Assembly: GCA_964638765.1 (NCBI GenBank)
Contig: CAZXBK010000002.1
Span: 72-32,071, forward strand
Reading direction: 5' to 3'
Length of the DNA stretch: 32,000 nucleotides
DNA from: an uncultured Synechococcus sp.
GTDB taxonomy: Bacteria > Cyanobacteriota > Cyanobacteriia > Cyanobacteriales > MRBY01
In this document: piece by piece, positions 1 to 28,508 of the stretch
How positions within the stretch are numbered: position 1 is the first letter of the stretch
Layout of the letters: each line of letters starts with the position of its first letter
Notes under the pieces: generated by a model
Database searches by the model: none
Told to the model about the DNA's origin: nothing
The model's input: only the letters and a program-made list of their open reading frames with translations
Made by a program: the position numbers and the translations under genes

Positions 1-47
1 CTATGAACAAAGTTTGTAGGATTCTCTGGGGGCTGGATGAAAGATAA
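1..47 (+). CDS. 3' end of an ILYG-tail family small protein (5' end outside window)
   Basis: Frame 3 reads MNKVCRILWGLDER-stop (stop 45-47). NKVCRILWG matches the family tail. The next start (ATG 37) overlaps it. Confidence 0.45.
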   Translation, partial: MNKVCRILWGLDER

Positions 48-258
48 AACAGGTAAGGAAATTCAAGATGGGGATTTCGGGATATACAGTAATTATTATT
101 GTTTTAGTTTAGATCAAATTGTCAATGGTAAGTACATAACTCTACAAACTTTTGAAGGTGATTTTTATTGGTCGGGTCCATCAAATGAAACCTATAGAGA
201 AAGCTTTACTACTATCGGTAAACCCAAAATCCTGTCAACACTTTTCGGGACAAAATAA
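37..258 (+). CDS. ILYG-tail family small protein
   Basis: 73-aa ORF ending KPKILSTLFGTK. The stop TAA overlaps the next ATG (TAATG). Confidence 0.7.
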   Translation: MKDKTGKEIQDGDFGIYSNYYCFSLDQIVNGKYITLQTFEGDFYWSGPSNETYRESFTTIGKPKILSTLFGTK

Positions 259-371
259 TGAGATTTCTGAGAGAGCTTTACTGCCATTATTTTGGACACA
301 GGTGGATAAAATTCTACTCAACAGATATTTGTGATAGGTGTGGGATAATTAGGAGGAAGGTGAGGAAATGA
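258..371 (+). CDS. Hypothetical 37-aa Cys/His-containing peptide
   Basis: ATG 258 overlaps the upstream stop (TAATG) and its TGA overlaps the next ATG 368 (ATGA). Translation is MRFLRELYCHYFGHRWIKFYSTDICDRCGIIRRKVRK. Support comes only from the coupling geometry. Confidence 0.3.
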   Translation: MRFLRELYCHYFGHRWIKFYSTDICDRCGIIRRKVRK

Positions 372-571
372 ATGTAAAAGTTGGGGATGTGGTAATGTTA
401 ACGCAAGAGAGTCTTTTTACTGGAAGGTCGAAAAAAGGATCTATCTCTGTAGTATTAGAGGTCCATTCTGGTGGCATAATAACTTACTCGAAGGAATTTT
501 GGGTAGGTTCTTTTTTCTGCAAAATCGACACTAAAATAACCAACATCCTATTCGGAGCTCCCAATGCGTAG
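368..571 (+). CDS. ILYG-tail family small protein
   Basis: SD AGGAGGAAGG lies upstream. N-terminus is MNVKVGDVV and the tail is DTKITNILFGAPNA. Confidence 0.8.
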   Translation: MNVKVGDVVMLTQESLFTGRSKKGSISVVLEVHSGGIITYSKEFWVGSFFCKIDTKITNILFGAPNA

Positions 572-953
572 CTCCCTAATCAACACAGACTTTGCAAAAG
601 TCGTCACAGAACTCCGTATCAACAGATACGATTTCCACGTTACCGAAAATCCAATTACCTACGAAATTGACACAATATTTTGTGAACTAACTTTTTCCTT
701 GACAGGGAAACTCCTATCGGTGTATAATAAATTAGAAGAGAAAAGTAAGGTTGGAGCTTCACCTATTATTGACAGCAGACCTGCTATTCTTTTAAAACAG
801 TTACGAGCGTATTCTGCCTTAGCTCGCCTTTTGAGCTCCAACGATGTGAATGGGGCTAGACATTACTTAGATCAAGCTAAGAAGTGTTTAGCCCTATTTC
901 AGAAAGAGCAAGAGGACGTAACAGCAGAGTACCAGATTAAGGAGGTAGCGTGA
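564..953 (+). CDS. Hypothetical protein (129 aa)
   Basis: Long ORF whose ATG sits inside the upstream tail. No motif recognised. Confidence 0.6.
   Translation: MRSSLINTDFAKVVTELRINRYDFHVTENPITYEIDTIFCELTFSLTGKLLSVYNKLEEKSKVGASPIIDSRPAILLKQLRAYSALARLLSSNDVNGARHYLDQAKKCLALFQKEQEDVTAEYQIKEVA
699..728 (+). promoter_or_regulatory. Intragenic sigma70-like promoter
   Basis: TTGACA (699-704), 18-nt spacer, TATAAT (723-728), inside ORF 564..953. Confidence 0.45.
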
Positions 954-1117
954 ATCACGAAGTTAAACTTTTACTGGTTGTTGGATTTCTTTCATTATTG
1001 GTTTTCACCACAGGTGGGGATACCAAGGTTAGAAGAGATCCCAGTACGGTAGAAATGAAAAAGGCTGTTCAGGATCACAAATTGAAGGTCAAGAAACATT
1101 ATTGTAGGGCTGAGTGA
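950..1117 (+). CDS. Hypothetical small membrane protein (55 aa)
   Basis: GTG 950 overlaps the upstream TGA (GTGA), with SD AAGGAGG at 939-945. It has a hydrophobic stretch LLLVVGFLSLLVFTT. Its stop overlaps the next ATG 1117. Confidence 0.45.
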   Translation: MNHEVKLLLVVGFLSLLVFTTGGDTKVRRDPSTVEMKKAVQDHKLKVKKHYCRAE

Positions 1118-1336
1118 TGGATGTGAAAGTTGGGGATATTTGTTGGTGTAGTCAATTTCTTACCATAGTTCGGGTGTTGGGAGTTTTAGGTGATTACGGT
1201 TATCAGTTAGAAGATCTAACTCCAGATGGATTAGGTACTATGAATAAAAACTATTCTCAGTTAGCCGATCCCTGATTTCCCAATAACACCAATAAATAAT
1301 AAAATCCTAAACATCCTAGTCAAGGGGGAGAAATGA
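1117..1336 (+). pseudogene. ILYG-tail family member interrupted by a +1 frameshift (or recoded)
   Basis: Frame 1 reads MDVKVGDICW...SQLADP and stops at CCC TGA (1270-1275). The family-like tail INNKILNILVKGEK-stop (1334-1336, ATGA overlap with the next gene) is in frame 2, open from 1265. Confidence 0.5.
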
Positions 1337-1611
1337 AAGTATTAGTTAGTGCAGCTTTACCGACACTATCGGTAAACCAAAACCACACACTTACAGGCGA
1401 ACTTAGACAGAACCTGATTAACTTAGGTCTGGGTTTCGAGGGATGTATTTACATTACTGAAACTGGTCAAACAGTGGTTGGATTTATCTCAGATTGGGAT
1501 GATGCTCTTGAGGATATTTACACCACTGTCAATCAGAAATTTGAACACATGGAAAGATCTGTAGAAGGAGGAAAGGTGATCTGGAGGGGGCTGAATTATG
1601 AGCTGGTCTAA
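1333..1611 (+). CDS. Hypothetical protein (92 aa)
   Basis: ORF with SD GGGGGAG upstream and an ATGA overlap at its start. No motif recognised. Confidence 0.6.
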   Translation: MKVLVSAALPTLSVNQNHTLTGELRQNLINLGLGFEGCIYITETGQTVVGFISDWDDALEDIYTTVNQKFEHMERSVEGGKVIWRGLNYELV

Positions 1612-1789
1612 GGTAATCATTACTGGAGGCATAGCTGGTAGTGGATCTAACATAAAAGGAAAGGTAGTTCTTATTAGGGAAATTGGAATTTTTTATGATG
1701 TAAAAGGGTATTATCGAGGATTACCTAAGCCTTGGTTAGAATTTACAAAATCAAACAAAATAGCAAATATACTTTTTGGCTTGCAATAG
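1598..1789 (+). CDS. ILYG-tail family small protein
   Basis: 63-aa ORF ending KSNKIANILFGLQ. Confidence 0.7.
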   Translation: MSWSKVIITGGIAGSGSNIKGKVVLIREIGIFYDVKGYYRGLPKPWLEFTKSNKIANILFGLQ

Positions 1790-1809: not shown

Positions 1810-1827
1810 AATCTAAAGGAGAAGAAA

Positions 1828-3015
1828 ATGAAATTACAAGAAGCAAAAATCGCAGTACCAATTATGGCAAAAGCAGGAATCGTACCACTTTTCTACGGAG
1901 CACAGGGTAAAGGTAAAACTGAATCCATGCGTCAGTTAGCAGAGTCAATGGGTTACAGGTTTGTTTCCCTGAGACTCGGACAACTCACAGACTCCGGTGA
2001 CCTTACAGGTCTTCCAGACTTCTCAACATTAGAGGTGAATGGTCAGGAAGTGAAGGTGACTGATTTTATGCAACCTAAGTTCCTACCAGTTGCTGGCGAG
2101 AAAGTGTTCCTATTCCTCGATGAGGTTAACAGGACACCTAATGATATTATCCAAGCTGTCTTCCAACTGGTTGAGAGAAATGGTGGTATCGGCGAATACA
2201 AACTGGATTTCACAAAAGATCCAGAAACAGGTCTACCTAATACTATTAGGGCAGCAGCATGCAACCCTCCAACGGACGATTTCGTTGTTCAGGATTTCGA
2301 TGACCTAGCTTGGCAAGACCGCTTCGTTCACATCAAATTTGAACCAACGGTAGCAGAATTTCTTGACTATATGGATTCAAAAGGTGTGCATGGATCGATT
2401 ACTCACTTCCTTAGAAGTCAACCAACAATGATCGAAGTTGAGTCTAAGGATTTCAACCTTAACCACGTAAAACCATCTCGAAGAAGTTGGGAGTCGGTGG
2501 CAAAAGTTATTGAACAAGCTGAAGGTGTGGATCGTGCAGTTATTAATGAAATTTGTTGCGGTCTCGTAGGGGTGGAAGCATATACAGCTTACCAATCGTC
2601 AAGAAAGAATTATGATCTTGTGTTGAAAGGAACGGATGTTCTGGATAAATTTGATGAGGTAAAATCCAATATCCCATTTGACAGAACAGACCTAATCTCT
2701 AAGATTAACCTTGAGATCCTAGAAGAACTCAAGCAGGACAATGTTACAAAAGAGCGCGGTCTCAACCTAATCAAGTACCTAAACAAGATCCCAAAAGATA
2801 TGGGTGTGTCTTTCTTCCAAACCACACTAGAAACGATGGTTAAGGTGGTAAAAGATGACAAAGAAGTTGAGGAGCCAGTTGTGTCTCAACCGAATGTTCT
2901 GAAGCACTTCTTTGATTTTGAAGTTGATGCAGCAGACCAACACATCGAAGATGAGTTTGTAAAAATCTACGGTGAAGCACTAAAACCTAACCAGGAAAAG
3001 GAAGATGAGAAATAA
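1828..3015 (+). CDS. MoxR-like AAA+ ATPase
   Basis: Walker A GAQGKGKTE, Walker B FLFLDEVNR and the AAACNP segment typical of AAA_5/MoxR proteins. It overlaps a VWA-domain partner. Confidence 0.88.
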   Translation: MKLQEAKIAVPIMAKAGIVPLFYGAQGKGKTESMRQLAESMGYRFVSLRLGQLTDSGDLTGLPDFSTLEVNGQEVKVTDFMQPKFLPVAGEKVFLFLDEVNRTPNDIIQAVFQLVERNGGIGEYKLDFTKDPETGLPNTIRAAACNPPTDDFVVQDFDDLAWQDRFVHIKFEPTVAEFLDYMDSKGVHGSITHFLRSQPTMIEVESKDFNLNHVKPSRRSWESVAKVIEQAEGVDRAVINEICCGLVGVEAYTAYQSSRKNYDLVLKGTDVLDKFDEVKSNIPFDRTDLISKINLEILEELKQDNVTKERGLNLIKYLNKIPKDMGVSFFQTTLETMVKVVKDDKEVEEPVVSQPNVLKHFFDFEVDAADQHIEDEFVKIYGEALKPNQEKEDEK

Positions 3016-4354
3016 TATTGTTGAAGAAGCAATTATCCGACTAATCAAAAAAGAAAGGTTTTTCGCTAATCTAATCGGTCAATTCAACAGGGTGTACGTA
3101 GGAGACGATCACCCTGTCAAGACCGCAGCAGTTAGCATCACGGACAAAATCAATCTTTACGTTTACGTCCCATTTTTTGAGAACCCTTTTAAAATGGAGA
3201 TGCCGGCTCAGGAAGAGCTTGACAAAATCAAGGAGCAGCTAGGTAAGGATTATGATAAGTGGTATGAGCAGACTCAGGATAGGATTAAAAAAGCTAAGAA
3301 AGTGGAAAACCCAACAACGGAGCAGATCCACAGAGCGCAAGAGGTTATCCTGATTCACGAGTGTTTACACATAATGAATACACACATTACTCGTTTTAAA
3401 AAGCTTAACACAAAAATCGGTGATACCAAATACAGCTTCTCAGCACAGGCAGCAAACATTGCAATGGACTGTGCGATTAACCAGCTCCATGGAGTTGAGG
3501 AAGCAGTGGATCTTTTTGGTGGCATTACTTTAAAATCTTTTAGGGAAATGTTGGAAGACGATACCATCGAAGCTAACCAACACTTTGAGTATTACTTCAA
3601 CAAAATGCACGAAAATGCAGAGAAGTTGATCCAAAAGTACGGTGAATCGATGGAAGGTGTCTCCAATCAGGACAACCACGAAATGTGGGAAGAAGGTGGA
3701 GAAGGCGGTCAAATGGAAGAGGCTATAGCTAAGAATGCTGTGAAGAAAGCGGCAGAAGCTACAGGTCGTGGTAACATCCCTGGGGATCTCTTACTAATGA
3801 TTGACGAGCTCCTAACCTCTAAGGTGAATTGGAAGCAAAAGCTTAGACAATTTATCCAAGCTAGGGTGAGAGCTAACAAAAAGGCTACTAGGTCTAAGCG
3901 TAACCGTAGGTATGGGATTGTGTTCCCTGGCAAGAAAAAGGATTACGTTGCACACATTGCCGTTGCAGTGGATACTTCTGGATCGATGTCAGATCAAGAC
4001 CTTGCTAGGTGTTTCACTGAGATCCACAAAATCGCTACAACAACCAATGTTAGGTTAACCGTAATCGAGGCTGATGCACAGGTTACACAGGTTTATCCGT
4101 TTGACGTAAAAACTCCACCAAGTCCGAAAGGCAGGGGTGGTACGGCTTACCAACCAGCTTTTGACAAAGCTACGGAATTAGATGTTGACGGTGTGTTGTA
4201 CATGGGAGACTTTGACGCGTTCGACACGCCTAAGAAACCTAAGTACCCAGTGCTTTGGGTTGGAATTGGGTGTAACCCAGGTAGACAAACTCCAGGTGAT
4301 TTTGGTAGCGTGGTTTACATTGACACGAAGGATGGTGTTGAAAGTGCAGCTTAG
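3005..4354 (+). CDS. Putative metallopeptidase-like (HExxH) / von Willebrand A domain protein (DUF2201-like)
   Basis: HECLH motif in the N-terminal half and MIDAS motif VAVDTSGSMS in the C-terminal half. The start overlaps the MoxR gene by 11 nt. Confidence 0.82.
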   Translation: MRNNIVEEAIIRLIKKERFFANLIGQFNRVYVGDDHPVKTAAVSITDKINLYVYVPFFENPFKMEMPAQEELDKIKEQLGKDYDKWYEQTQDRIKKAKKVENPTTEQIHRAQEVILIHECLHIMNTHITRFKKLNTKIGDTKYSFSAQAANIAMDCAINQLHGVEEAVDLFGGITLKSFREMLEDDTIEANQHFEYYFNKMHENAEKLIQKYGESMEGVSNQDNHEMWEEGGEGGQMEEAIAKNAVKKAAEATGRGNIPGDLLLMIDELLTSKVNWKQKLRQFIQARVRANKKATRSKRNRRYGIVFPGKKKDYVAHIAVAVDTSGSMSDQDLARCFTEIHKIATTTNVRLTVIEADAQVTQVYPFDVKTPPSPKGRGGTAYQPAFDKATELDVDGVLYMGDFDAFDTPKKPKYPVLWVGIGCNPGRQTPGDFGSVVYIDTKDGVESAA

Positions 4355-4616
4355 ATGGGTAGTAAATTTTTTGAGTAACAAGAATGCTTTCGGTAAGGCT
4401 GAGTGTGGAAAACATTCAGAAGGCGCAAACATTTTAGCTCACGAAAGTTCAAATCTCGGACACCATTTTCAAATCCGACACCTAAAACCCTACGAATGGA
4501 TTTTAGAAAGAGGAAAGTGGCAACCCTGCTCAGAGCAAAGGGTGATCGAAAAGGTCGCCCAACGCTACCCCGTGATAGGATCAAAAATTGTAGGAGTGCT
4601 TTATGGAATTACCTAA
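4355..4616 (+). pseudogene. ILYG-tail family member needing a +1 shift in a T6 run (or a TTG start at 4371)
   Basis: ATG 4355 abuts the upstream stop (TAGATG) and reads MGSKFFE-stop. The +1 frame runs open from the T6 run (4367-4372) to the tail GSKIVGVLYGIT (stop 4614-4616). Confidence 0.45.
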
Positions 4617-4842
4617 GGTGGGAGAGGTTTGGAGATTTTATCATTTTGAAACAGATTCTTCTATGTCTGTTGTTTTTGTTGAGCCTCTTGATTTCGACTT
4701 TCGATACCATTCAATAGAAGATGATATTAGACATTCTTTTAGTAAAGCAACTTTTGAGAGAGACACAAAGCTTCGTACAGCGGTTTGGACTAAAATTGAT
4801 TCTAAAGTAATCCGCTTACTCTATGGTTTGGAGGAAAAATGA
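4603..4842 (+). CDS. ILYG-tail family small protein
   Basis: N-terminus MELPKVGEVW and tail DSKVIRLLYGLEEK. Its ATG is embedded in the upstream TAT GGA codons, 8 nt after AGGAG. Confidence 0.8.
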   Translation: MELPKVGEVWRFYHFETDSSMSVVFVEPLDFDFRYHSIEDDIRHSFSKATFERDTKLRTAVWTKIDSKVIRLLYGLEEK

Positions 4843-5051
4843 GAGAAATACCCAAGGTGGGAGATTGGATAATAGGTGAAGTTTTTTATGCGAACGGTAG
4901 GAGAAAGGTGCTTGCACAAAAAGTAGGATTAGTGTTAGTGAATTGGTTTACAACAAAACCTGAACATTTTTCTTACAGCTCTTATTGGAGTAGTCCCTAT
5001 TGGTGTAACACTAACAAAGTAGTTAAAATCCTATATGGAATCGAGGAGTGA
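4839..5051 (+). CDS. ILYG-tail family small protein
   Basis: N-terminus MREIPKVGDW and tail NTNKVVKILYGIEE, with an ATGA overlap at its start. Confidence 0.8.
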   Translation: MREIPKVGDWIIGEVFYANGRRKVLAQKVGLVLVNWFTTKPEHFSYSSYWSSPYWCNTNKVVKILYGIEE

Positions 5052-5425
5052 ATATGATAAAATTACTCTACATCCTAACTTCCCTATTCGCTTCAGACAT
5101 CGAGCTGAAACACCTGTCTCTGGAATACGAGTATGCTGTGGGAACCAACCGACCTCCCTACTTTTTTGAAGGGTACGGTCGAAAAGTTGGTGAGCTAAAT
5201 CTAAACATGCGTACAGAAATAGACAACATTTACAGCATTATCCGAGTTGAGTCGATAATTGCTGAGAGACAGTTTAGCAATGTTGCACTGGACACCGAAC
5301 TTGGGATTAAGTGGGAAAGGTTTGATTTTTACACCCAACACCGGAGTGAGCATATTCTAGATCAAACCATGCCTCAGAAATACCCTAATGAGAACTCAGT
5401 TGGGGTAAGGGTGAACCTAAAGTGA
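5048..5425 (+). CDS. Hypothetical protein with hydrophobic N-terminus (possible signal peptide)
   Basis: GTG start overlapping the upstream stop. N-terminus is MNMIKLLYILTSLFASD. Confidence 0.55.
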   Translation: MNMIKLLYILTSLFASDIELKHLSLEYEYAVGTNRPPYFFEGYGRKVGELNLNMRTEIDNIYSIIRVESIIAERQFSNVALDTELGIKWERFDFYTQHRSEHILDQTMPQKYPNENSVGVRVNLK

Positions 5426-5628
5426 AAGAACAGGTTTACCTAACCAAATTAAATGAACCTGTGATCCTACAACCATTGGAAATGGGAGGTAAACTGATTA
5501 TGTCAGGATTCTGGTTAGTTGATATAATAAATCAACATAATGGTTTGGTGTCCTCTGAGAGCTCTGAGGAATTTATAGTTGCTCCTAAAGTCTTTCAGAT
5601 ACTGTGGGGTTACCATGAAACAGTATGA
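5422..5628 (+). CDS. ILYG-tail family small protein (Trp variant)
   Basis: GTGA overlap start. The tail is APKVFQILWGYHETV. Confidence 0.65.
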   Translation: MKEQVYLTKLNEPVILQPLEMGGKLIMSGFWLVDIINQHNGLVSSESSEEFIVAPKVFQILWGYHETV

Positions 5629-5794: not shown

Positions 5795-6020
5795 GTTTAT
5801 AGTGGGGATGCCTGTACGGTATATTTATAAATCCAATAAATGGCTTACAAAAGATAAAATTTACACTTGCACATACGTTGACAACGTTAGAACAAATATT
5901 CCTTATGTTGGAGTGTTTGCTGATAACACAGGAAGTAAAAATGCCTGGCTTAGGGAATATTTCCAACCCCTCCGCACAAAAGTGACTGACCTCCTATACG
6001 GAGTAACCGATGAGAGTTAG
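5787..6020 (+). CDS. ILYG-tail family small protein
   Basis: GTG 5787 lies 9 nt after SD AAGGAG. The tail is LRTKVTDLLYGVTDES. The longer 5625 start would overlap the zinc-ribbon ORF. Confidence 0.7.
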   Translation: MDKFIVGMPVRYIYKSNKWLTKDKIYTCTYVDNVRTNIPYVGVFADNTGSKNAWLREYFQPLRTKVTDLLYGVTDES

Positions 6021-6220
6021 ACCGGGGCAGATATGGGCGTGGGATAGTAATTATCACAACCAATTGTACCAAATTATAGGGATTTACGTTGGTGGGTGTT
6101 GGATAATCCCCATTAAATACCAATTTTGAAATAAAAAGATACCCCTTAGGTTATTTTGAAGATGACATTTGGACAATTAAACATGATTCTAAAATAACCC
6201 GAATCCTATTTGGAGAATAA
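6010..6220 (+). pseudogene. ILYG-tail family member interrupted by a +1 frameshift at TTT TGA (or recoded)
   Basis: ATG 6010 (gATGA inside the upstream tail) reads MRVRPGQIWAWDSNYHNQLYQIIGIYVGGCWIIPIKYQF and stops at 6127-6129. The +1 frame, open from 6107, reads ...EIKRYPLGYFEDDIWTIKHDSKITRILFGE-stop (6218-6220). Confidence 0.5.
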
Positions 6221-6221
6221 C

Positions 6222-7217
6222 ATGCAATTTTCACACTCAGCTATAGAAAAATACAAGGAATGTCCTAGGAAGTACCACCTGTACTACCAACAAAAGTTAA
6301 GACCTGTCCTAATGCGATCCCCCCTATTCTTTGGTAGTCTGGTGGACGATGTGGTAGGACGAATGCTTATGGAAAAAAAGGAAGCCCCCACAGACGAGGA
6401 ACTGGACCTAATCTTATCCAAAAGCTGTGATGAAATAATCCAAGATGCGGTAGAGCTTTGGAAAGAGGATGAAAAACTTCGATTCTCACAGGCAGATTTG
6501 GACCTCTCGCTGTTCTCAGAGGAAGACCTTACCGATTGCTTTACCCGATGCTCAGAATTGAATTTAGAGGTATCTGAGGACTCCTATCAGGCTTTCCTAG
6601 ATGCTTGTAAAACTCAACTGAAGAGTGACAATTTTGCTCTAGATCGTGAGGTGCAGTTAGGATACAACTATTTCTTCATTAGGTCTCTAGTGCTGAAATT
6701 AGGAATGATACTTCCTAAGGTGCAGGATTGGATTGATGGGAGTGTGGACGCTGTTTTGGATATTCAAAAAAAGATCGAATTACAGGATGGCGACGATATC
6801 ATAATTGGATACATAGATTTCACTGCCAGGATGAAAGATGGTACTGTCCGAATTTGGGACTTAAAAACCTCCTCGAAGGCGTACAAAGAAAATGAAGCAA
6901 ACGAATCGCAACAGTTGACAATTTACTCAGAATATGCTACAATATTAGACGTAGGTTTTCTGGTTGTCCAAAAATCTATCAGAAAAAGGGAACCTAGGGT
7001 GCGATTACAGGAAGTTATCGGCAAAATCACCCAAGAACAGGCAGATAAGGTGTTTGCAGAGATTACCGAGATTGTCAATAAAATTGTAGAATCAGGTAGA
7101 GAAACTTCCCTTTATCCAAAAAATTTGAATAGCTGTCACAACTTCGGCGGGTGTGACTATCGCGACTACTGCAAGTGGGGCAGTGAGAAAGGGTTGGAGC
7201 GTAAAGGTGAAAGCTAA
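6222..7217 (+). CDS. Cas4-like / RecB-family PD-(D/E)XK exonuclease with Cys cluster
   Basis: N-terminal Cys (YKECPRKY), core IDFTARMKDGTVRIWDLKTS, the QQLTIY motif, and C-terminal CHNFGGCDYRDYC. ATG 6222 is preferred over TTG 6210. Confidence 0.82.
   Translation: MQFSHSAIEKYKECPRKYHLYYQQKLRPVLMRSPLFFGSLVDDVVGRMLMEKKEAPTDEELDLILSKSCDEIIQDAVELWKEDEKLRFSQADLDLSLFSEEDLTDCFTRCSELNLEVSEDSYQAFLDACKTQLKSDNFALDREVQLGYNYFFIRSLVLKLGMILPKVQDWIDGSVDAVLDIQKKIELQDGDDIIIGYIDFTARMKDGTVRIWDLKTSSKAYKENEANESQQLTIYSEYATILDVGFLVVQKSIRKREPRVRLQEVIGKITQEQADKVFAEITEIVNKIVESGRETSLYPKNLNSCHNFGGCDYRDYCKWGSEKGLERKGES
6915..6943 (+). promoter_or_regulatory. Intragenic sigma70-like promoter inside the nuclease gene
   Basis: TTGACA (6915-6920), 17 nt, TGc-TACAAT (-10 at 6938-6943). 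Confidence 0.4.
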
Positions 7218-7443
7218 GGATTTGTTGAAGTATGTTACGAAAGAGGAATTTGGTAGTGGAATAGGACCATATGTTAGAGTGTATCTTGAAGATCTTAAGT
7301 ACGAAAGGCAAGAAATTATTGCTGGTTTTTCTAATCCCGGAAAGAGTCCAAAAAAGTTTACCCGAGACCAGTTCGTAACTGAGACACTCAAACGTAATCC
7401 TTGGATTAACACAAAGATGTCAAGGATTTTATATGGCGACTGA
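7207..7443 (+). CDS. ILYG-tail family small protein
   Basis: GTG 7207 follows AAAGG. The tail is NTKMSRILYGD. The upstream part of track ORF 7153 overlaps the nuclease gene. Confidence 0.7.
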   Translation: MKAKDLLKYVTKEEFGSGIGPYVRVYLEDLKYERQEIIAGFSNPGKSPKKFTRDQFVTETLKRNPWINTKMSRILYGD

Positions 7444-21923: not shown

Positions 21924-22016
21924 TAAGGTAGATCTTTCTAGTTTTAAGAAATATCTAATCCGGTATGTTCGTTGGAGAGCTACAAGTAGGTTGTGGCGAC
22001 TTTTAGGAGGTTTTTA

Positions 22017-22571
22017 GTGTTCAAAATGTGTATGTGTAAATGTGGAGGGTTAATTCATGCAAAGAACAAAGCCTACGGATACACAGGTAAGGTTTGTTTT
22101 TGTGAAAAACCTGAACCTCGGGAGAATGATTTGATCGGTTACGAAAAAACTTTGACAGAAAAAATATTAGATGAGCAGGGACACGCTCACACAAAAGAAG
22201 ATAAAGAGAATCCAGAAGTTTCACAAGGGGGTTCCTTACGCTACAATAAGGGTAAGCCTCAGTTTTCCAACCTATCCCCGCATTTTATCTTGGAAATGAT
22301 GAAGGGAATGACTGCTGCCAATGACAAATACCCATATCTTAATTATACGAAAAAGATGGACGTTCGTACAGCCTCTGACAGCCTGATGAGACACTTTCTA
22401 AAGTTTCAACAAGGGCATGATATAGACGAAGAGTTAGGAACTCACCATATGGCTCTGGTGGCTATAAACGCTATGATAATTTACCAGAACCTCCTAGATT
22501 TTGGAGATAAGGTGGATAGCAGATATCAAAAAGAGAAAGAGAGAGTGCAGGGTGAGAAGGGGGAAGAGTGA
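22017..22571 (+). CDS. Cys-rich N-terminus plus DUF5664-like (dATP/dGTP diphosphohydrolase N-terminal-like) domain protein
   Basis: GTG 22017 lies 6 nt after SD AGGAGG. LRYNKGKPQFSNLSP...AANDKYPYLNY...SLMRHFLKFQQGHDIDEELGTHHMALVAINAMI resembles that domain from memory; no search was run. Confidence 0.6.
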   Translation: MFKMCMCKCGGLIHAKNKAYGYTGKVCFCEKPEPRENDLIGYEKTLTEKILDEQGHAHTKEDKENPEVSQGGSLRYNKGKPQFSNLSPHFILEMMKGMTAANDKYPYLNYTKKMDVRTASDSLMRHFLKFQQGHDIDEELGTHHMALVAINAMIIYQNLLDFGDKVDSRYQKEKERVQGEKGEE

Positions 22572-22819
22572 GCAATTGGCGAAAGGAGTTGAAAGTTGGA
22601 GATTGGATTTTAGTAGATGATATGAGCAGGCAAAGAGTTGTTTTAGTTAGAGTAAAAGAAGTTGAACCTCTTAATAGTGGAGCGGCTGGAGTTTTCGTAC
22701 ATAGTAAACATAATTCTTACTCTTGGTATCCCTATAGATTAAATACTAGTGCTGCTAATATTCTAGCCCCTCTCAATACAAAAATAACAAAAATATTAAT
22801 AGGAGAACCCAATGCTTAA
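22568..22819 (+). CDS. ILYG-tail family small protein (Ile variant)
   Basis: Contains ELKVGDWILVD near the N-terminus. The tail is NTKITKILIGEPNA; compare 368..571, which ends ILFGAPNA. Confidence 0.8.
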   Translation: MSNWRKELKVGDWILVDDMSRQRVVLVRVKEVEPLNSGAAGVFVHSKHNSYSWYPYRLNTSAANILAPLNTKITKILIGEPNA

Positions 22820-23007: not shown

Positions 23008-23309
23008 TGGAAAAGATTAAATTTATGAATATGAAAGAAGGTATCGTTTACGAGAGAGAATCGGATGGTAAGCTCTTCAAAAAAATAGGAGAAAGGTTAC
23101 TATCTGCTGATCCAGAGGGTACGTTTAAGGAGACTGAGGATGTTTCCCTAGCTGACCTATTCTCAAAAACACACAAGAATGCGAATGACTCCCTAATGGA
23201 TATTTACAATCTAATGGTTTCAGGAAACATTTCTGAACAGAAAAATGCACACAACAGGCTGTTGAGAGAGATTATTCAGAAGATTGATAAGTTGGAGAGT
23301 AGGGAATGA
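23007..23309 (+). CDS. Hypothetical protein (100 aa)
   Basis: ATG 23007 lies 8 nt after AAGGA and is preferred over TTG 22980. Confidence 0.55.
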   Translation: MEKIKFMNMKEGIVYERESDGKLFKKIGERLLSADPEGTFKETEDVSLADLFSKTHKNANDSLMDIYNLMVSGNISEQKNAHNRLLREIIQKIDKLESRE

Positions 23310-23515
23310 AAGTTGGAGATTTTTTCTGGAATACTCAATATAACTATCTTAGTAAAATATCATACATTTCATTTGACTACGGTAAACCCTTTTATAGTTA
23401 TAATGATTTAATAGGGGCTCACGGAGGAGGGTGTACGGGCGACGCTTTTAGAGAAATACACACACCTCTAAACAAAATCCTAAAAATCTTAACAGGAATT
23501 AAACATGAAAGTTAA
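23306..23515 (+). CDS. ILYG-tail family small protein (Thr variant)
   Basis: N-terminus MKVGDFFWN and tail LNKILKILTGIKHES. Confidence 0.8.
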   Translation: MKVGDFFWNTQYNYLSKISYISFDYGKPFYSYNDLIGAHGGGCTGDAFREIHTPLNKILKILTGIKHES

Positions 23516-23930
23516 ATTAAACGGTAACGCAACTTTACCTAAAAAAGCTCACCCAAGTGATGCAGGTTACGATCTGGTTGCAACGGGCAGAACTAGAATA
23601 GGCAATATCCTAACTTACGAAACAGATATTGCTGTAGAGATTCCTAAGGGTCATGTTGGATTACTCTTTCCTAGGTCTTCAGTTTATAAGTATGACCTAG
23701 AGCTATGTAACTCTGTGGGAGTTATTGATGAGAATTTCAGAGGAACAATAAAAGCTAAATTCAGGGAAATCCCAACAAAGGATCTAATTGCTAAACCTAA
23801 AATCTACGATATCGGCGACCGCGTGTGTCAACTGGTAATTGTACCGATCTATTCTGAAGAGTTGGAAGTTGTGGATAGTTTGGATAAAAGTTATAGGGGG
23901 TCAGATGGCTTCGGCAGTTCAGGAGTTTAG
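23505..23930 (+). CDS. dut: dUTP diphosphatase (trimeric dUTPase)
   Basis: The five dUTPase motifs: AGYDL, PRSS, GVIDENFRG, GDRVCQLV, RGSDGFGSSG. Confidence 0.92.
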   Translation: MKVKLNGNATLPKKAHPSDAGYDLVATGRTRIGNILTYETDIAVEIPKGHVGLLFPRSSVYKYDLELCNSVGVIDENFRGTIKAKFREIPTKDLIAKPKIYDIGDRVCQLVIVPIYSEELEVVDSLDKSYRGSDGFGSSGV

Positions 23931-24147
23931 TCCAGGGGATTTAGCTCTGTGTATTGGCGAATGTGACGATTTTTTTACGCCAGGTAAAATATACGTAGTA
24001 AATTACACTAAAATCGATCATTGTGGTGATATCGAATTATGGGCTTACGACAATTACGGAATAGAAGATTGGTGGTATGTTGAAGCATTCACCAAACTCC
24101 CAAAATCCAAGGTACTAAATGCTCTCTACGGTATTGACAAAACCTAA
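23905..24147 (+). CDS. ILYG-tail family small protein
   Basis: ATG 23905 follows AGGGGG, inside the dUTPase 3' end. The tail is KSKVLNALYGIDKT. Confidence 0.75.
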   Translation: MASAVQEFSPGDLALCIGECDDFFTPGKIYVVNYTKIDHCGDIELWAYDNYGIEDWWYVEAFTKLPKSKVLNALYGIDKT

Positions 24148-24167: not shown

Positions 24168-24398
24168 GTGACCTTATCAGAAGTTAGAAAATTTTTAGAA
24201 GATCTGGAAGAAGGGGAACCGTTTATTGTGTTCCCCGACGACTACTACCCAGTTGAGATAGCTTTCGGATATACAATTTTTCACGACGATTGGGTAGAAA
24301 TCGAAACCCCCACATTAATTCATGACGGAATGGAATTTGAAAACATCCGTTTAGTAAAATGTCCCAAACTATTAGGAGTTCTGGTTGGATATAAATGA
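24168..24398 (+). CDS. ILYG-tail family small protein (Val variant); start uncertain, possibly leaderless
   Basis: The tail is CPKLLGVLVGYK. GTG 24168 is the only upstream start candidate and has no SD. Confidence 0.55.
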   Translation: MTLSEVRKFLEDLEEGEPFIVFPDDYYPVEIAFGYTIFHDDWVEIETPTLIHDGMEFENIRLVKCPKLLGVLVGYK

Positions 24399-24576
24399 TT
24401 TATACAAAGGAAGTTATTACAAAAGAGTCAAACAAATTGCCTCAGGGTATAAGTTTATGTACTGGACAAGTGTCCGACCTACCAACAAAATAATCCAAAT
24501 CCTAATGGGAATCCCACCAAACACAGAATACGTAATGAAAAATGGTTCGATAGTCTGGAGAAAGGTGAAGAAGTAA
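24385..24576 (+). CDS. ILYG-tail-like small protein with internal tail motif and C-terminal extension
   Basis: TTG 24385 is embedded in the upstream GTT GGA codons. TNKIIQILMG is followed by 22 more residues. Confidence 0.5.
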   Translation: MDINDLYKGSYYKRVKQIASGYKFMYWTSVRPTNKIIQILMGIPPNTEYVMKNGSIVWRKVKK

Positions 24577-25603: not shown

Positions 25604-25614
25604 GGAGTTTTTTA

Positions 25615-26529: not shown

Positions 26530-26543
26530 TGTTATGCTATAAT
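26515..26543 (+). promoter_or_regulatory. Sigma70-like promoter upstream of the secreted protease gene
   Basis: TTGACA (26515-26520), 17 nt, TGc-TATAAT (-10 at 26538-26543). SD AGAGGAG and ATG 26569 follow. Confidence 0.6.
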
Positions 26544-26568
26544 ATTCCGTCACTTACAGAGGAGAAAC

Positions 26569-27342
26569 ATGAAATTTTTACTAACATTACTATTATCCGT
26601 GGTATCGGTATTTACTTTTGCTGAACCCCTAAAAGAAATTACCCTTACATCTAAAAATACCGTGGTGATGCGAAGCAAGTTCAGTTCTTCCTCCGTAGCT
26701 AAGGTGCAGGGTGAACTATTTAACCTGTCATCCAGACTAGATGTAGATGATGACATTTACCTAGTCTTAGATTCCCCAGGTGGTTCAGTTATTGCTGGTA
26801 TGCACTTAATTGATACGGTTAAGACCTTACCTCAAAATGTTCACACAATTACACTTTTCGCGGCTTCTATGGGCTACCAGACTGTCCAGAACCTAGGTAA
26901 GCGATACATCGTACCCTCAGGAATCCTAATGTCTCACAGAGCCTTTATTGGCGGTCTGAGTGGACAATTAGATGGCGAACTAGAATCCAGACTATCATTT
27001 TACAAAGAGATTACCACTTCCCTAGATCAAGTAGCAGCTAAACGTGTGGGTGTACCCCTTTCTGATTACAAAAATCTAATTATTAACGAATATTGGGCAG
27101 GATCTCTAAAAGCTGTCGCTCAGAACCATGCAGATGAGATTGTTTCAGTGAAATGTTCTAAAAGTCTAATGGGAACCTACAGACAGAGGATTGCTACGTT
27201 TTTCGGAGCATTCACCCTAACCTATTCAAAATGTCCGTTAATCAGAGGACCAATTGCTTTCGTTAGAGGAAGTAGGGAAGCTTTTGATAAATTTGAGCAA
27301 CAATACATGCTTGACAGAAGACTACCATTTGAAATGAGGTAA
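26569..27342 (+). CDS. ClpP/SppA-like serine protease with N-terminal signal peptide
   Basis: Signal-like MKFLLTLLLSVVSVFTFA-EP. Contains LDSPGGSVIAGMHLIDTV, Ser region FAASMGYQ and His region ILMSHRAFIGG. Confidence 0.75.
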   Translation: MKFLLTLLLSVVSVFTFAEPLKEITLTSKNTVVMRSKFSSSSVAKVQGELFNLSSRLDVDDDIYLVLDSPGGSVIAGMHLIDTVKTLPQNVHTITLFAASMGYQTVQNLGKRYIVPSGILMSHRAFIGGLSGQLDGELESRLSFYKEITTSLDQVAAKRVGVPLSDYKNLIINEYWAGSLKAVAQNHADEIVSVKCSKSLMGTYRQRIATFFGAFTLTYSKCPLIRGPIAFVRGSREAFDKFEQQYMLDRRLPFEMR

Positions 27343-27344
27343 TA

Positions 27345-27716
27345 ATGTCTACACAAGATATCCAAGATTTATTAAAAGAAATCGAAGAAGCTGAGAAAAG
27401 GGCTGACCCAGAAATGGAGGTCAGTCAAACTAAGAGAACAGTTGAAAGAGGACTTTCTCGAAGCCTAAAAACATTTATCCAAGGTAAAAATATCATTGCT
27501 GGAACAGACAAAATTCCCAACTATTTTATCTATAGAATGTATTTGGATTTTGAGCCATGGACACCTAAGGTATCTAAGATAGAATTCTTTAGACAGTTTA
27601 AAAAGGCTTTCACTGGTAAGCGTACAGGTAAAGGTCGATATTATCTTCTGGATGGAAGTAAGTTCGAGATGACCGAAGAGATGCTTGCTCAGGCAAAAGA
27701 GCTGGATAAAAAGTGA
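27345..27716 (+). CDS. Hypothetical protein (123 aa)
   Basis: ORF. No motif recognised. Confidence 0.6.
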   Translation: MSTQDIQDLLKEIEEAEKRADPEMEVSQTKRTVERGLSRSLKTFIQGKNIIAGTDKIPNYFIYRMYLDFEPWTPKVSKIEFFRQFKKAFTGKRTGKGRYYLLDGSKFEMTEEMLAQAKELDKK

Positions 27717-28327
27717 GTAAAAATAAAAGACGCAAACACTCAGGCTTAAAGAAGAGCCACAACACCAAAGCTAGAAGGCACGTTATCGAAGCAGATTACG
27801 TTGACGGTGTTTACAATTCCAAAGGTGAGAGGGTAATTCGTCCTCTCACTGAGGAAGAGAAAGATTGGCTAAACAAGTTTTACGAAGAAACTGTGGTTAC
27901 CAATTTCCTACATGGCAAAGGGATGAAAGAAAAAAATAAGGAAATTAAATCACTACTCCATTGTGAAGAATACAAAAAGCTCTCACAGGAACAAAAGGAA
28001 GCAACAACCAAACAGGAAAAAGAGCGTTTTAAGGAGCTAAAAAAGTTAATTAAAGAACAGAATATGGACGACTATGGTGAGGAAATTGAGGAGCTTAGAG
28101 AGGAACTCCAAGATTTGCGAGACCAACATCTACTCTACCCTGATCCAGAAGACCATAAGATCTTTTTTACAGAAAACAACCATAGAAATAACGATGTCCT
28201 AAACAAGGCTAGGCTAGAAGAATTCAAACCAGAGATCATGGATAAATTACAAGCTGAGGTATTAAAGGATTTGGATTACGAAGAGTATTTAATCGACTTA
28301 ATTGAGGGTGAAGATGAAGACGGGTGA
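27713..28327 (+). CDS. Hypothetical protein, basic N-terminus and acidic C-terminus (204 aa)
   Basis: GTGA overlap start. No motif recognised. Confidence 0.6.
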   Translation: MSKNKRRKHSGLKKSHNTKARRHVIEADYVDGVYNSKGERVIRPLTEEEKDWLNKFYEETVVTNFLHGKGMKEKNKEIKSLLHCEEYKKLSQEQKEATTKQEKERFKELKKLIKEQNMDDYGEEIEELREELQDLRDQHLLYPDPEDHKIFFTENNHRNNDVLNKARLEEFKPEIMDKLQAEVLKDLDYEEYLIDLIEGEDEDG

Positions 28328-28508
28328 TTGGGTGATATGCATTAAAAATGCTTTTATGATTTTTGATTCTGGAAGAATGTACAAAGTTGAATACTCTAAC
28401 GATCTGCATTTTAAAATAAAAGACAATATTGGTGAATATAGATTTACTTTTAAATCTAATTTTACCCCCTCTACCAAAATAACCAAAATTCTTTACGGAA
28501 TAAAATGA
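28314..28508 (+). CDS. ILYG-tail family small protein
   Basis: N-terminus MKTGDWVICIK and tail STKITKILYGIK. Confidence 0.8.
   Translation: MKTGDWVICIKNAFMIFDSGRMYKVEYSNDLHFKIKDNIGEYRFTFKSNFTPSTKITKILYGIK

What the first reader, a model, noticed from the sequence alone, without database searches (positions are those of the whole stretch)
1..28508. About 27 paralogous mini-genes with a conserved C-terminal '(S/T/N)K(I/V)xxILYG' tail occupy the gaps between nearly all core genes
Seen directly: 27 ORFs of mostly 60-100 aa end in the same roughly 10-residue tail, followed by 1-5 residues and a stop. Examples are TKITNILFG, SNKIANILFG, DSKVIRLLYG, TNKVVKILYG, TKVTDLLYG, SKITRILFG, TKMSRILYG, LSKITKILYG, LNKITSILYG, TNKILDILYG, LNKILTILTG, LSKILNILYG, PNKVVKILYG, TKITKILIG, LNKILKILTG, SKVLNALYG and STKITKILYG. 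The aromatic position is Y in 14, F in 4, W in 2 and T/I/L/V/M or an irregular residue in the remaining 7. About ten also share an N-terminal (M)KVGD/PKVGD/EVGN/EIGD motif, while the middles look highly divergent. The tail is encoded with many synonymous codon choices (CTA TAT GGA, TTA TAC GGA, CTT TAC GGA, CTC TAT GGC, CTC TAC GGT), so the constraint appears to act on the peptide rather than on a DNA repeat. Members sit singly or in tandem runs at almost every junction between core genes and cover roughly one fifth of the window: after VWA; around the nuclease; before and after the primase-helicase; before the polymerase; and around dUTPase. Inference only: conserved termini and a variable core suggest a small scaffold (possibly an SH3-like beta-barrel) diversified for binding, for example a host-takeover or anti-defence set. 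The common tail could be a docking, degradation or packaging tag, possibly linked to the two phage ClpP-like proteases. I do not recognise this tail as a described family, but I could not search databases.
Basis: partly seen in the sequence, partly recalled or inferred. Interest (0 to 1): 0.92.

Follow-up and report, generated by a model that had tools for sequence, protein, structure and literature searches.

The report
Phage mini-protein family with shared tail
An uncultured phage fills a fifth of its replication region with about 26 tiny, fast-diverging proteins that all end in the same short helix, and each related phage uses its own version of that helix across all its copies, which suggests one shared, still unknown binding partner.

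Summary
The tail K-[IVLM]-x-x-[ILVAT]-L-[YFW..]-G occurs 26 times on the + strand, against about 0.8 expected and at most 2 loose matches on the - strand, almost always 1-5 residues before a stop. Third codon positions are nearly uninformative, so selection acts on the peptide. Members cover 19.5% of positions 1-28508. No Pfam, NCBIfam or named PHROGs family matches, and 50,697 cultured phages, IMG/VR and GTDB genomes hold no relatives.

New here: five syntenic relatives (59-73% helicase identity) carry the same family, each with its own tail version. These are W S/T/N-K-I-x-K-I-L-Y-G, L007 T-N-L-H-K-I-L-Y-G, L008/9 T-N-L-T-K-L-L-Y-L-G-E, L056 x-K-F-x-K-Y-L-Y-G and L057 S-P-A-L-K-I-L-Y-G. All 17 cross-phage pairs with homologous cores carry their own genome's version, so the tails changed in concert. 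AlphaFold models of two members show a five-stranded SH3/Tudor-like barrel ending in a short helix made by the tail. About half the window's cores show no similarity to that barrel.

Best reading (inferred): an array of early accessory mini-proteins whose tail is a shared interaction helix for one co-evolving partner. The partner and function are unknown. The proposed ClpP link is not supported.

The parts
3..47 (+). C-terminal end of a member cut off by the window start (..NKVCRILWGLDER*)
37..258 (+). member, 73 aa, tail PKILSTLFGTK; barrel-type core (core HMM E 0.006)
368..571 (+). member, 67 aa, MNVKVGD.. / TKITNILFGAPNA; barrel-type core
1598..1789 (+). member, 63 aa, tail SNKIANILFGLQ
4371..4616 (+). 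member after the VWA/DUF2201 gene (start uncertain: TTG 4371 or GTG 4344), tail GSKIVGVLYGIT; the next gene's ATG lies inside its Tyr-Gly codons
4603..4842 (+). member, 79 aa, MELPKVGE.. / DSKVIRLLYGLEEK
4839..5051 (+). member, 70 aa, ..IPKVGD.. / TNKVVKILYGIEE
5422..5628 (+). member, 68 aa, tail APKVFQILWGYHETV; core not detected by the barrel HMM
5808..6020 (+). member, 70 aa (a metagenome variant is called from 5787, 77 aa), tail RTKVTDLLYGVTDES
6010..6220 (+). member split by a +1 frameshift at the C4 run 6108-6111: N-half 6010-6129 (MRVRPGQIWAWD..), C-half 6107-6220 (..DSKITRILFGE*)
7207..7443 (+). member after the PD-(D/E)XK nuclease (start uncertain: GTG 7207 or 7153), tail NTKMSRILYGD; core unrelated to the barrel profile (hhalign prob 0.1%)
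7433..7687 (+). member, 84 aa, tail ETKIYRTLYGKKDN; core unrelated to the barrel profile (hhalign prob 0.2%)
9705..9998 (+). member, 97 aa, tail LSKITKILYGYQD
10175..10330 (+). short member, 51 aa, tail DTKVTRVLYGN
10320..10583 (+). member, 87 aa, tail LNKITSILYGVKNED; its GGAG is the SD of the next gene
10824..11069 (+). member in the slot just upstream of the primase-helicase, tail TNKILDILYGYQGE; core unrelated to the barrel profile; the helicase ATG lies inside its Tyr-Gly codons
13038..13250 (+). member just downstream of the primase-helicase, 70 aa; AF2 model pLDDT 78: four strands plus helix 59-65 (NKILTIL)
13832..14044 (+). member, 70 aa, MKIEVGN.. / LSKILNILYGVK; full-length paralogue of 13038-13250 (E 4e-8)
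14519..14737 (+). member, 72 aa, tail PNKVVKILYGVKNEY; core 43% identical to L009 12014-12229, whose tail is AVSLAKLLYG
14727..14951 (+). member just upstream of PolB, 74 aa, MSIEIGD.. / ASKIEKILLGEQCNP
22568..22819 (+). member, 83 aa, ..LKVGD.. / NTKITKILIGEPNA
23306..23515 (+). member just upstream of dUTPase, 69 aa, MKVGD.. / LNKILKILTGIKHES
23905..24147 (+). member just downstream of dUTPase, 80 aa, tail KSKVLNALYGIDKT; barrel-type core (core HMM E 2e-7)
24168..24398 (+). member, 76 aa, irregular tail CPKLLGVLVGYK
24385..24576 (+). member with an internal tail (TNKIIQILMG) followed by 21 more residues
28314..28508 (+). member, 64 aa, MKTGD.. / STKITKILYGIK; AF2 model pLDDT 86.5, pTM 0.71: five strands plus helix 55-60 (KITKIL)
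1828..4354 (+). AAA_5 (MoxR-type) ATPase 1828-3015 and DUF2201 VWA/metallopeptidase-like protein 3005-4354: the only gene pair seen whose presence tracks the family; a candidate partner and a lead only

Best explanation
The window is the early/replication module of an uncultured phage from marine or aquaculture metagenomes. Wedged between nearly all its core genes are about 26 translationally coupled mini-genes (51-97 aa). SHOWN: they are held together by one peptide element, a helix N-cap (S/T/N, usually preceded by Pro) followed by K-[IV]-x-[KRN]-I-L-[YF]-G. At least half have a hypervariable five-stranded SH3/Tudor-like barrel in front of it, and the others have cores with no detectable relationship to that barrel. 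In the models the tail is the last structural element, a two-turn helix directly after strand 5. The few residues that follow are the overlap with the next gene, whose ATG or SD is often written into the Tyr-Gly codons. Related phages carry the same family in the same slots, but all copies in a genome share a genome-specific version of helix positions 0-2. Members whose cores are homologous between phages still carry their own genome's version. INFERRED: the tail is a common interaction surface, and every mini-protein uses it to dock onto the same partner. That partner has drifted between phage lineages and pulled all the tails along. The variable bodies supply different specificities or activities. 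The array then works like a set of interchangeable adaptors or effectors plugged into one hub, expressed with the replication genes. The partner is more likely phage-encoded than a conserved host hub, because the versions differ between close relatives. The only phyletic lead is the AAA_5 + DUF2201 (VWA/metallopeptidase-like) pair. Partner identity and biological role (host takeover, anti-defence, delivery into the virion) are not established.
For: The motif is enriched about 30-fold, is strand-specific and sits at ORF ends. Selection is on the peptide, with synonymous sites scrambled. Coding is supported: dN/dS is about 0.5 between L008 and L009 orthologues against 0.33 for the helicase, and 20 of 25 member stops overlap the next start. 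Five tail versions occur in six phages: W has K at position 0 in 24/24 and I/V/M at position 1 in 23/24; L007 has N 21/24, L 24/24 and H 22/24; L008/9 have N-L-T/A..L-L-Y-L-G-E; L056 has K-F-x-K-Y-L-Y-G; L057 has [SC]-P-A-[LIM]-K-I-[LM]-[YFW]-G. All 17 cross-lineage pairs with homologous tail-less cores (E<1e-3) carry tails in their own genome's version, and only 12 within-genome pairs reach that threshold, so the subfamilies predate the phage splits. The best case is W 14519-14737 and L009 12014-12229, with 43% core identity and tails NKVVKILYG and VSLAKLLYG. Varied synonymous codons within a genome argue against recent gene conversion. A tail-less HMM trained on the other phages finds 7/24 window cores at E<0.01 and 0/31 controls (p=3e-4), but about half of the cores are undetectable, and three outlier cores give hhalign probabilities of 0.1-0.2% against the family profile, so the tail is shared by dissimilar bodies. 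The slot just upstream of the helicase holds a tail-bearing gene in all six phages despite unalignable cores. pI ranges from 4.3 to 10.1 and aromatic content is 12-14%, indicating heterogeneous surfaces. AF2 places the tail in a helix after strand 5 with pLDDT 83-92. Precedent for one docking peptide shared by several phage proteins: the interchangeable C-terminal clamp-binding motifs of T4 gp43, gp55 and gp33 (PMC2988020).
Against: No partner has been identified and no binding has been tested. In the AF2 models the tail is a confident helix contiguous with the barrel. Chromo/Tudor-like barrels are typically capped by a structural C-terminal helix (PMC5906684), so part or all of the conservation could be structural. 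I could not inspect model coordinates to see which helix face is exposed. The inference of concerted change rests on six genomes that are not independent, on short cores, and on E-values computed against a very small database. The co-occurrence with AAA_5/DUF2201 rests on +/-10 kb windows of nine contigs. 'Unrelated' cores could simply be barrels diverged beyond detection. No expression data exist.
Confidence: 0.45

Rival explanations
1. Purely structural tail. The helix is the hydrophobic cap of a small SH3/chromo-like barrel, and it is conserved because it is the one element the fold cannot lose. The genome-specific versions reflect each phage having re-expanded the family from one founder copy, or old gene conversion followed by synonymous drift. 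There is no common partner, and each mini-protein acts on its own.
For: AF2 places the tail in a confident helix directly after strand 5. Chromo-like SH3-fold barrels are often capped by a C-terminal helix (PMC5906684). The hydrophobic i, i+3, i+4 pattern and helical hydrophobic moment of 0.4-0.6 fit a packing helix. The N-cap, Leu, aromatic and Gly positions are common to all versions. Small SH3-like barrels are very common among uncharacterized phage proteins.
Against: Barrels within one genome cannot be aligned with each other, yet their tails are uniform; a helix co-adapting to each barrel should vary by paralogue, not by genome. The invariant polar residues (K in W, N and H in L007) are hard to explain by packing. 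Cross-phage core homologues are at least as close as within-genome ones (17 against 12 pairs), which argues against one founder per genome. The tail also occurs on cores with no similarity to the barrel. Synonymous diversity argues against recent conversion.
Confidence: 0.25
2. Mutual association. The tails bind each other, so the roughly 25 paralogues form homo- or hetero-oligomers. Compatibility among co-expressed copies then forces all tails in a genome to change together.
For: This explains genome-wide uniformity and lineage-specific drift without an external partner. The tail is an amphipathic two-turn helix. The genes are co-oriented and translationally coupled, so the proteins are made together.
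Against: An 8-residue helix is short for a stable oligomer interface. Neither model needed a partner to reach pLDDT 78-86 as a monomer. There is no direct evidence.
Confidence: 0.12
3. Degradation or packaging tag. The tail is a degron or adaptor motif for the phage ClpP-like proteases or host ClpX/ClpA, or a signal that loads the mini-proteins into the capsid for co-injection.
For: Two ClpP-family genes lie in the window (21281-21847, 26569-27342). A shared terminal signal on diverse small proteins is how T4 internal proteins are targeted to the capsid (own knowledge; that signal is N-terminal). A capsid or scaffold partner would be phage-encoded and could co-evolve with the tails.
Against: ClpP-like genes are equally present in relatives that lack the family (L010, L059). 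The tail is not at the free C-terminus: 1-21 residues follow it, and they are dictated by the overlap with the next gene. The tail is predicted to be folded, not a disordered tag. The genes lie in the replication module, not among the structural genes.
Confidence: 0.1
4. Translation-level element. The conserved end of each ORF is there mainly for the downstream gene, providing its start codon and SD or acting as a nascent peptide that pauses the ribosome to promote re-initiation, and the peptide itself has no function.
For: In 15 of 24 window members the aromatic-Gly codons contain the next gene's start (TATGG) or SD (GGAG); the figures are 14/24, 9/14 and 9/20 in L007, L008 and L057. Overlaps of 11 nt are typical after members.
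Against: Only the last two codons are involved. K, I/V, I and L lie 12-24 nt further upstream with free third positions. Gly is kept with non-SD codons (GGG, GGC, GGT) where no gene follows. The distance from the tail to the stop varies from 1 to 21 codons, which does not fit a position-specific arrest peptide.
Confidence: 0.05

Closest known systems
Chromo/Tudor-like SH3-fold barrels capped by a C-terminal helix (Pfam clan CL0049; PMC5906684)
   Same: The predicted architecture matches: five short strands forming an SH3-like barrel, then a C-terminal helix. The best fold matches include PHF1/PHF19/PHF20 and SGF29 Tudor domains, the Spt5 KOW domain and Src-family SH3 domains (TM 0.6-0.73). The only PDB sequence-profile hit is the SPF30 Tudor domain, aligned over KVGD..G.xY (E 1.8, not significant).
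   Different: There is no significant sequence or profile match to any family of that clan. The proteins are single-domain, phage-encoded and present at about 25 copies per genome. The helix, not the barrel, is the conserved part. There is no evidence for an aromatic cage.
T4 gp43/gp55/gp33 C-terminal sliding-clamp-binding peptides
   Same: Several different proteins of one phage end in a near-identical short hydrophobic motif that docks them onto a single hub, and the motifs are interchangeable (PMC2988020).
   Different: The T4 motif is hydrophobic-acidic and sits on a flexible linker. Here the motif is hydrophobic-basic and is predicted to be a helix contiguous with the domain. There are about 25 carriers, not 3. 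No clamp gene was found in the window. L008 and L009 share one tail version but have different polymerase families, so the polymerase machinery does not track the tail.
Poxvirus ankyrin/PRANC (F-box-like) multigene families (own knowledge, not tested here)
   Same: These are large paralogous viral families with a variable target-binding body and a conserved C-terminal motif that plugs every member into one machine.
   Different: The virus type, host and fold are different and there is no sequence relationship. The hub is known for poxviruses (Skp1/cullin) and unknown here.
Small uncharacterized SH3-like phage proteins (B. subtilis SPbeta YorP, PDB 2heq; phrog_4927; BFVD entries)
   Same: The size and barrel fold are similar (YorP TMq 0.62; BFVD hits at E 4e-4 to 1e-2, TM 0.6-0.76). 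phrog_4927 aligns to the barrel of 3 of 48 members (best 1.2e-5).
   Different: The matches cover the barrel only, not the tail. None of these has a known function or is known to occur as a multi-copy array with a shared tail. No tblastn match was found in 50,697 cultured phage genomes.

Membership tests
SH3-fold / chromo-Tudor-like barrels (CL0049) | Five-stranded SH3-like beta-barrel | tested here: met
   AF2 models of 28314-28508 (pLDDT 86.5, five strands) and 13038-13250 (pLDDT 78, four strands); Foldseek top hits are SH3, Tudor and KOW domains with TM 0.6-0.73. Predicted for two members only.
SH3-fold / chromo-Tudor-like barrels (CL0049) | C-terminal helix capping the barrel | tested here: inconclusive
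   A helix is predicted at residues 55-60 / 59-65, formed by the tail.
SH3-fold / chromo-Tudor-like barrels (CL0049) | Significant sequence or profile match to a member family | tested here: not met
   Pfam scan of 10 and then 48 members found no recurrent family and nothing above the gathering score. The PDB profile search found only the SPF30 Tudor domain at E 1.8.
SH3-fold / chromo-Tudor-like barrels (CL0049) | Aromatic cage binding methylated Lys/Arg | not tested
T4-type clamp-binding C-terminal peptide | Short hydrophobic-acidic motif at the C-terminus, shared by several phage proteins | tested here: inconclusive
   A shared hydrophobic motif is present in 26 proteins, but it is basic (K/R at positions 0 and 3). 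Acidic residues appear only in the variable overlap after the Gly.
T4-type clamp-binding C-terminal peptide | Motif tethered by a flexible linker | tested here: not met
   The tail follows strand 5 within 2-3 residues and has pLDDT 83-92.
T4-type clamp-binding C-terminal peptide | Phage-encoded sliding clamp as the hub | tested here: inconclusive
   No clamp family was found among the window's ORFs in Pfam or PHROGs. The rest of the 88 kb genome was not examined.
Ubiquitin-like precursors (C-terminal Gly exposed by processing) | Beta-grasp fold and an invariant terminal Gly(-Gly) before a short removable extension | tested here: not met
   The fold is SH3-like, not beta-grasp. Gly is invariant only in the window; relatives end in ..ILYT*..LLYLD*..VLFDE*.
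ClpXP/ClpAP C-terminal degrons or SspB-type adaptor tails | Motif at the free C-terminus, disordered; function tied to Clp | tested here: not met
   1-21 variable residues follow the tail. The tail is predicted to be helical. ClpP genes also occur in relatives that lack the family.
phrog_4927 (unknown function) | Significant HMM match over the family's length | tested here: inconclusive
   3 of 48 members match (best 1.2e-5), over the barrel only (profile positions 3-62 of 73). Window member 28314-28508 reaches only E 0.15.
DNA repeat or regulatory element (not a gene family) | Conservation at the nucleotide level regardless of codon position | tested here: not met
   Third-position information is 0.07-0.35 bits against 1.4-2.2 at positions 1/2, and synonymous codon families are mixed.

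The most novel reading that the evidence does not exclude
The mini-proteins form a phage-encoded plug-in adaptor array. About 25 hypervariable small binders each recognise a different host (or defence) protein and use the common tail helix to deliver it to one phage-encoded machine. The best lead for that machine is the co-occurring MoxR-type AAA+ ATPase and DUF2201 VWA/metallopeptidase-like pair at 1828-4354. This would be a bacterial-virus counterpart of the F-box/PRANC logic of poxviruses, with tail and hub co-evolving fast enough to give each phage lineage a private version.
Probability: 0.12. Interest if true: 0.9.

Novelty: new variant of a known kind. Interest (0 to 1): 0.66.

Why it matters
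Small early phage genes are the largest pool of unknown function in phage genomes and the main source of anti-defence and host-takeover factors. Here a fifth of a replication module is one family organised by a single short peptide that is kept uniform within each genome and replaced as a set between close relatives. If the tail is a docking helix, it gives a direct experimental handle: one bait peptide per phage should pull down the hub, and about 25 natural variable bodies per genome give a ready-made library of specificities. It would also be a clear bacterial-virus example of motif-hub co-evolution across a multigene family. Even if the tail proves to be structural, the family is an extreme case of barrel hypervariability with a conserved clasp, and of gene junctions in which the last two codons of one gene encode the start signal of the next.

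Tried and rejected
- Known families: Pfam, PHROGs and NCBIfam scans of 10 and then 48 members found no named family.
- Profile searches: the exhaustive HMMER search of 1.84 billion representatives with the window-only profile returned only this phage's own proteins, so the profile was too lineage-specific. The word-indexed searches with A1 and A3 returned only self or close relatives.
- IMG/VR: the polymerase query found nothing. The family alignment was not conserved enough to seed a search. The tail-only alignment gave 121 pattern hits that could not be confirmed by tblastn. Back-translated TNLHKILY and NLTKLLYLG gave 40 and 4 hits, all single chance matches in AT-rich contigs and none at ORF ends.
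- Other collections: the GTDB genome scan with the helicase found no relative. tblastn of three members against cultured phages found nothing.
- DNA repeat, promoter or RBS explanation for the whole tail: rejected on codon-position information. Only the Tyr-Gly codons double as start or SD.
- Ubiquitin-like processing at the Gly: rejected, because Gly is not universal in relatives and the fold is not beta-grasp.
- ClpP link: rejected on phyletic grounds.
- Polymerase as the co-evolving partner: rejected, because L008 (PolA) and L009 (PolB) share one tail version.
- Bacteroidota host: I first guessed this from the marine source and the distant Salinibacter-phage polymerase match. It is made unlikely by clear SD usage.
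- Uniform nucleic-acid binding: unlikely, given pI 4.3-10.1.

Full report
**1. What is there**

The window has about 38% GC and is co-oriented on the + strand up to about 28.8 kb. It is a phage early/replication module. Pfam identifies the following:
- an AAA_5 ATPase (1828-3015)
- a DUF2201 VWA/metallopeptidase-like protein (3005-4354)
- a PD-(D/E)XK nuclease (6210-7217)
- an ERF recombinase (8666-9217)
- a DnaB-type primase-helicase (11050-13041)
- a phage metallopeptidase-like protein (14041-14517)
- a family-B polymerase (14939-17386)
- a C5 methyltransferase (17569-18474)
- an RNase H-like protein (20252-21277)
- two ClpP-family proteins (21281-21847, 26569-27342)
- a dATP/dGTP diphosphohydrolase-like protein (21993-22571)
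- a dUTPase (23505-23930)

The polymerase is only about 30% identical to those of Salinibacter phages, the nearest cultured relatives. The same phage recurs in several metagenome assemblies and as an 87.9 kb contig. One relative comes from an aquaculture metagenome from Shandong (PMC9710629). Genes use Shine-Dalgarno sites: 68% have one against a 20% background.

**2.

The tail pattern occurs 25 times (loose) or 18 times (strict) in the + frames, once or never in the - frames, and 0.8 or 0.03 times in shuffles. Including two irregular copies, 26 tails align in register. All lie at ORF ends except one with a 21-residue extension.

Conservation per codon position shows that the peptide is what is selected. 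Positions 1 and 2 of the K, I/V, I, L and G codons carry 1.4-2.2 bits, while third positions carry 0.07-0.35. Leu is spelled with six different codons.

After choosing starts, there are 24 intact genes of 51-97 aa. One further member is split by a +1 frameshift at a C4 run (6010-6129 plus 6107-6220), and one is truncated by the window edge. Together they cover 19.5% of positions 1-28508.

**3. The family is not in any library**

Pfam, NCBIfam and PHROGs give no named family. A few members touch unknown-function PHROGs through the barrel only. There is no tblastn match in 50,697 cultured phage genomes. An exhaustive HMMER search of 1.84 billion representative proteins with the window profile finds only this phage's own proteins. 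IMG/VR and the GTDB genomes yielded no relatives.

**4. Relatives carry the family with genome-specific tails**

The primase-helicase has a graded series of relatives in public assemblies. I fetched nine neighbourhoods. The five with 59-73% helicase identity are syntenic with the window, and their inter-gene slots hold the same kind of mini-genes. The four with 38-47% identity (L010, L011, L058, L059) do not.

My window-derived regex nearly missed the family in the relatives, because each genome uses its own version of the tail:

| Genome | Tail version |
|---|---|
| Window | [STN]-K-[IV]-x-[KRN]-I-L-Y-G |
| L056 | [PNST]-K-F-x-[KR]-Y-[LIV]-Y-G |
| L007 | T-N-L-H-[KR]-I-L-Y-(G or L-G-E) |
| L008/L009 | [TSN]-N-L-[TA]-K-L-L-Y-L-G-E |
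| L057 | [SCP]-[PE]-A-[LIM]-[KR]-I-[LM]-[YFW]-G |

Common to all are an S/T/N-type helix N-cap (usually preceded by Pro), a basic residue at position 3, hydrophobic residues at positions 4 and 5, an aromatic at position 6 and usually a Gly. The genome-specific part is positions 0-2, and it is nearly invariant within a genome. The window has K in 24/24. L007 has N in 21/24, L in 24/24 and H in 22/24.

**5. Concerted change, not independent expansion**

With the tails removed, the cores are extremely divergent. Most cannot be aligned even between phages whose helicases are about 70% identical. Where core homology is detectable, it crosses genomes as readily as it stays within them: 17 cross-lineage pairs against 12 within-genome pairs at E<1e-3. 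In all 17 cross-lineage pairs each partner carries its own genome's tail version.

The clearest pair is W 14519-14737 and L009 12014-12229, with 43% core identity (E 2e-9) and tails NKVVKILYG and VSLAKLLYG. So the subfamilies are older than the phage splits, and the tails were later changed across the whole set. Synonymous sites within a genome are scrambled, which argues against recent gene conversion. The mini-genes are under purifying selection, though relaxed: pooled dN/dS is 0.51 between L008 and L009, against 0.33 for the helicase.

**6. Fold**

AlphaFold2 with paralogue alignments gives two models:
- 28314-28508 has pLDDT 86.5 and pTM 0.71, with five strands and then a helix at residues 55-60 (KITKIL).
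- 13038-13250 has pLDDT 78, with four strands and then a helix at residues 59-65.

Foldseek against the PDB returns SH3, Tudor, KOW and PWWP domains, YorP and the N-terminal domain of Hpy99I, with TM 0.6-0.73 but weak E-values (0.02 or higher) and 7-21% identity. BFVD returns many uncharacterized small phage proteins. The only PDB sequence-profile hit is the SPF30 Tudor domain at E 1.8. The architecture, an SH3-fold barrel capped by a C-terminal helix, is that of chromo/Tudor-like domains (PMC5906684). Membership of any such family is not supported by sequence.

**7. Not all cores are barrels**

I trained a tail-less HMM on the other five phages. It recognises 7 of 24 window cores at E<0.01, three of them at about 1e-7, and none of 31 other small window proteins (Mann-Whitney p = 3e-4). 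About half of the members score like background. Three such cores (10824-11069, 7433-7687, 7207-7443) give hhalign probabilities of 0.1-0.2% against the family profile.

The slot just upstream of the helicase holds a tail-bearing gene in all six phages, but the cores there are unalignable and range from 77 to 103 aa. The tail therefore behaves like a module shared by dissimilar bodies.

**8. The end of the tail also starts the next gene**

20 of 25 member stops overlap the next gene's start, most often by 11 nt. In 7 of 24 window members the next start codon is embedded in the aromatic-Gly codons (six as T-ATG-G, one as G-TTG-G). In 8 of 24 the Gly codon supplies the SD core GGAG. L007, L008 and L057 behave similarly.

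This explains why a stop follows within 1-5 codons, and probably why relatives often end in -L-G-E. It does not explain the tail as a whole. Only the last two codons are involved, and Gly is retained with GGG, GGC or GGT where no gene follows.

**9. Interpretation**

Shown: a peptide-level, genome-uniform, lineage-variable tail helix on about 25 hypervariable, co-expressed mini-proteins per genome. Part of them have SH3-like barrels.

Inferred: the tail is a common interaction surface for one partner that co-evolves with it, and the bodies provide diverse specificities (pI 4.3-10.1, 12-14% aromatic residues).

A purely structural cap is the main rival. It fits the models, but it does not explain why tails are uniform across unalignable barrels, why polar positions are invariant within a genome, or why the tail appears on non-barrel cores. 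Mutual association of the tails is a second rival.

Some partners can be set aside:
- The ClpP idea is not supported, because ClpP genes occur in relatives without the family.
- A free C-terminal degron is excluded by the variable extensions.
- The polymerase is not the partner, because L008 (PolA) and L009 (PolB) share one tail version.

The only phyletic lead is the AAA_5 + DUF2201 pair. It is present in all five assessable family-positive phages and is not seen in the fetched parts of the four negatives. This is weak, non-independent evidence.

T4 provides the precedent for one docking peptide shared by several phage proteins (PMC2988020). Poxvirus ANK/PRANC families are the closest analogy in logic (own knowledge).

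**10. Verdict**

The finding is real, is not an artefact and has not been described. Function and partner remain unknown. I file it as a new variant of a known kind, namely viral multigene families of small accessory proteins with a shared docking motif, with moderately high interest.

Noticed in passing
window 14939-17386; L007 15677-18130; L008 13752-16214; L009 13761-16211; L056 14054-17026; L057 15236-17698: The DNA polymerase in the same syntenic slot is family B in the window, L009 and L056 but family A in L007, L008 and L057. This is a polymerase-type swap among phages whose helicases are 59-73% identical. The L056 PolB appears split into three ORFs (560+182+250 aa).
   Followed up: partly
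window 6010-6220: A family member is split by a +1 frameshift at a C4 run (6108-6111). The N-terminal half is MRVRPGQIWAWD.. in one frame, and the tail-bearing half has no start codon in the next frame. It could be a pseudogene, an assembly error or a recoding site.
   Followed up: partly
window, ends of members (e.g. 4596-4605, 7426-7435, 11043-11052, 10560-10575): The Tyr-Gly codons of the tail double as the next gene's start codon (TATGG, 7/24) or SD (GGAG, 8/24). Overlaps of 11 nt are much more common after members than after other genes, where the 4 nt ATGA overlap dominates.
   Followed up: yes
window 1828-4354: The AAA_5 (MoxR-type) ATPase and DUF2201 VWA/metallopeptidase-like pair is present in all assessable family-positive relatives and not seen in the fetched parts of the four family-negative relatives. 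In L056 a 139-aa tail-bearing gene sits between the two.
   Followed up: partly
window 21993-22571, 23505-23930, 17569-18474: A dATP/dGTP diphosphohydrolase-like (PF18909, MazZ-type) gene lies close to a dUTPase and a C5 cytosine methyltransferase. This may indicate nucleotide-pool editing or DNA base modification. No PurZ-like gene was seen in the window.
   Followed up: no
window 9982-10200; L007 9007-9237; L008/L009 9035-9244; L057 8426-8647: A different small conserved family (about 70 aa, ending ..LDRLLDWYGETIDTV or ..LLEWYGEELV) superficially resembles the tail, but it is a separate family that is well conserved across the phages.
   Followed up: partly
L007 12034-12810; L008 16215-16892 and 19998-20726; L057 13092-13649: HNH and GIY-YIG homing-endonuclease genes are inserted next to the helicase and polymerase genes in relatives but are absent from the window.
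   Followed up: no
window ~28.8 kb: There is a strand switch, with genes on the - strand from 28784 onward (29169-31142 encodes 657 aa and matches phrog_5880 of unknown function). The GC and AT skew change sign at the same point.
   Followed up: no
window, upstream of 69 gene starts: There is a clear SD signal (a G-rich peak at -10 to -7; 68% of genes against a 20% background). This argues against a Bacteroidota host, despite the marine or aquaculture source and the distant polymerase similarity to Salinibacter phages.
   Followed up: partly
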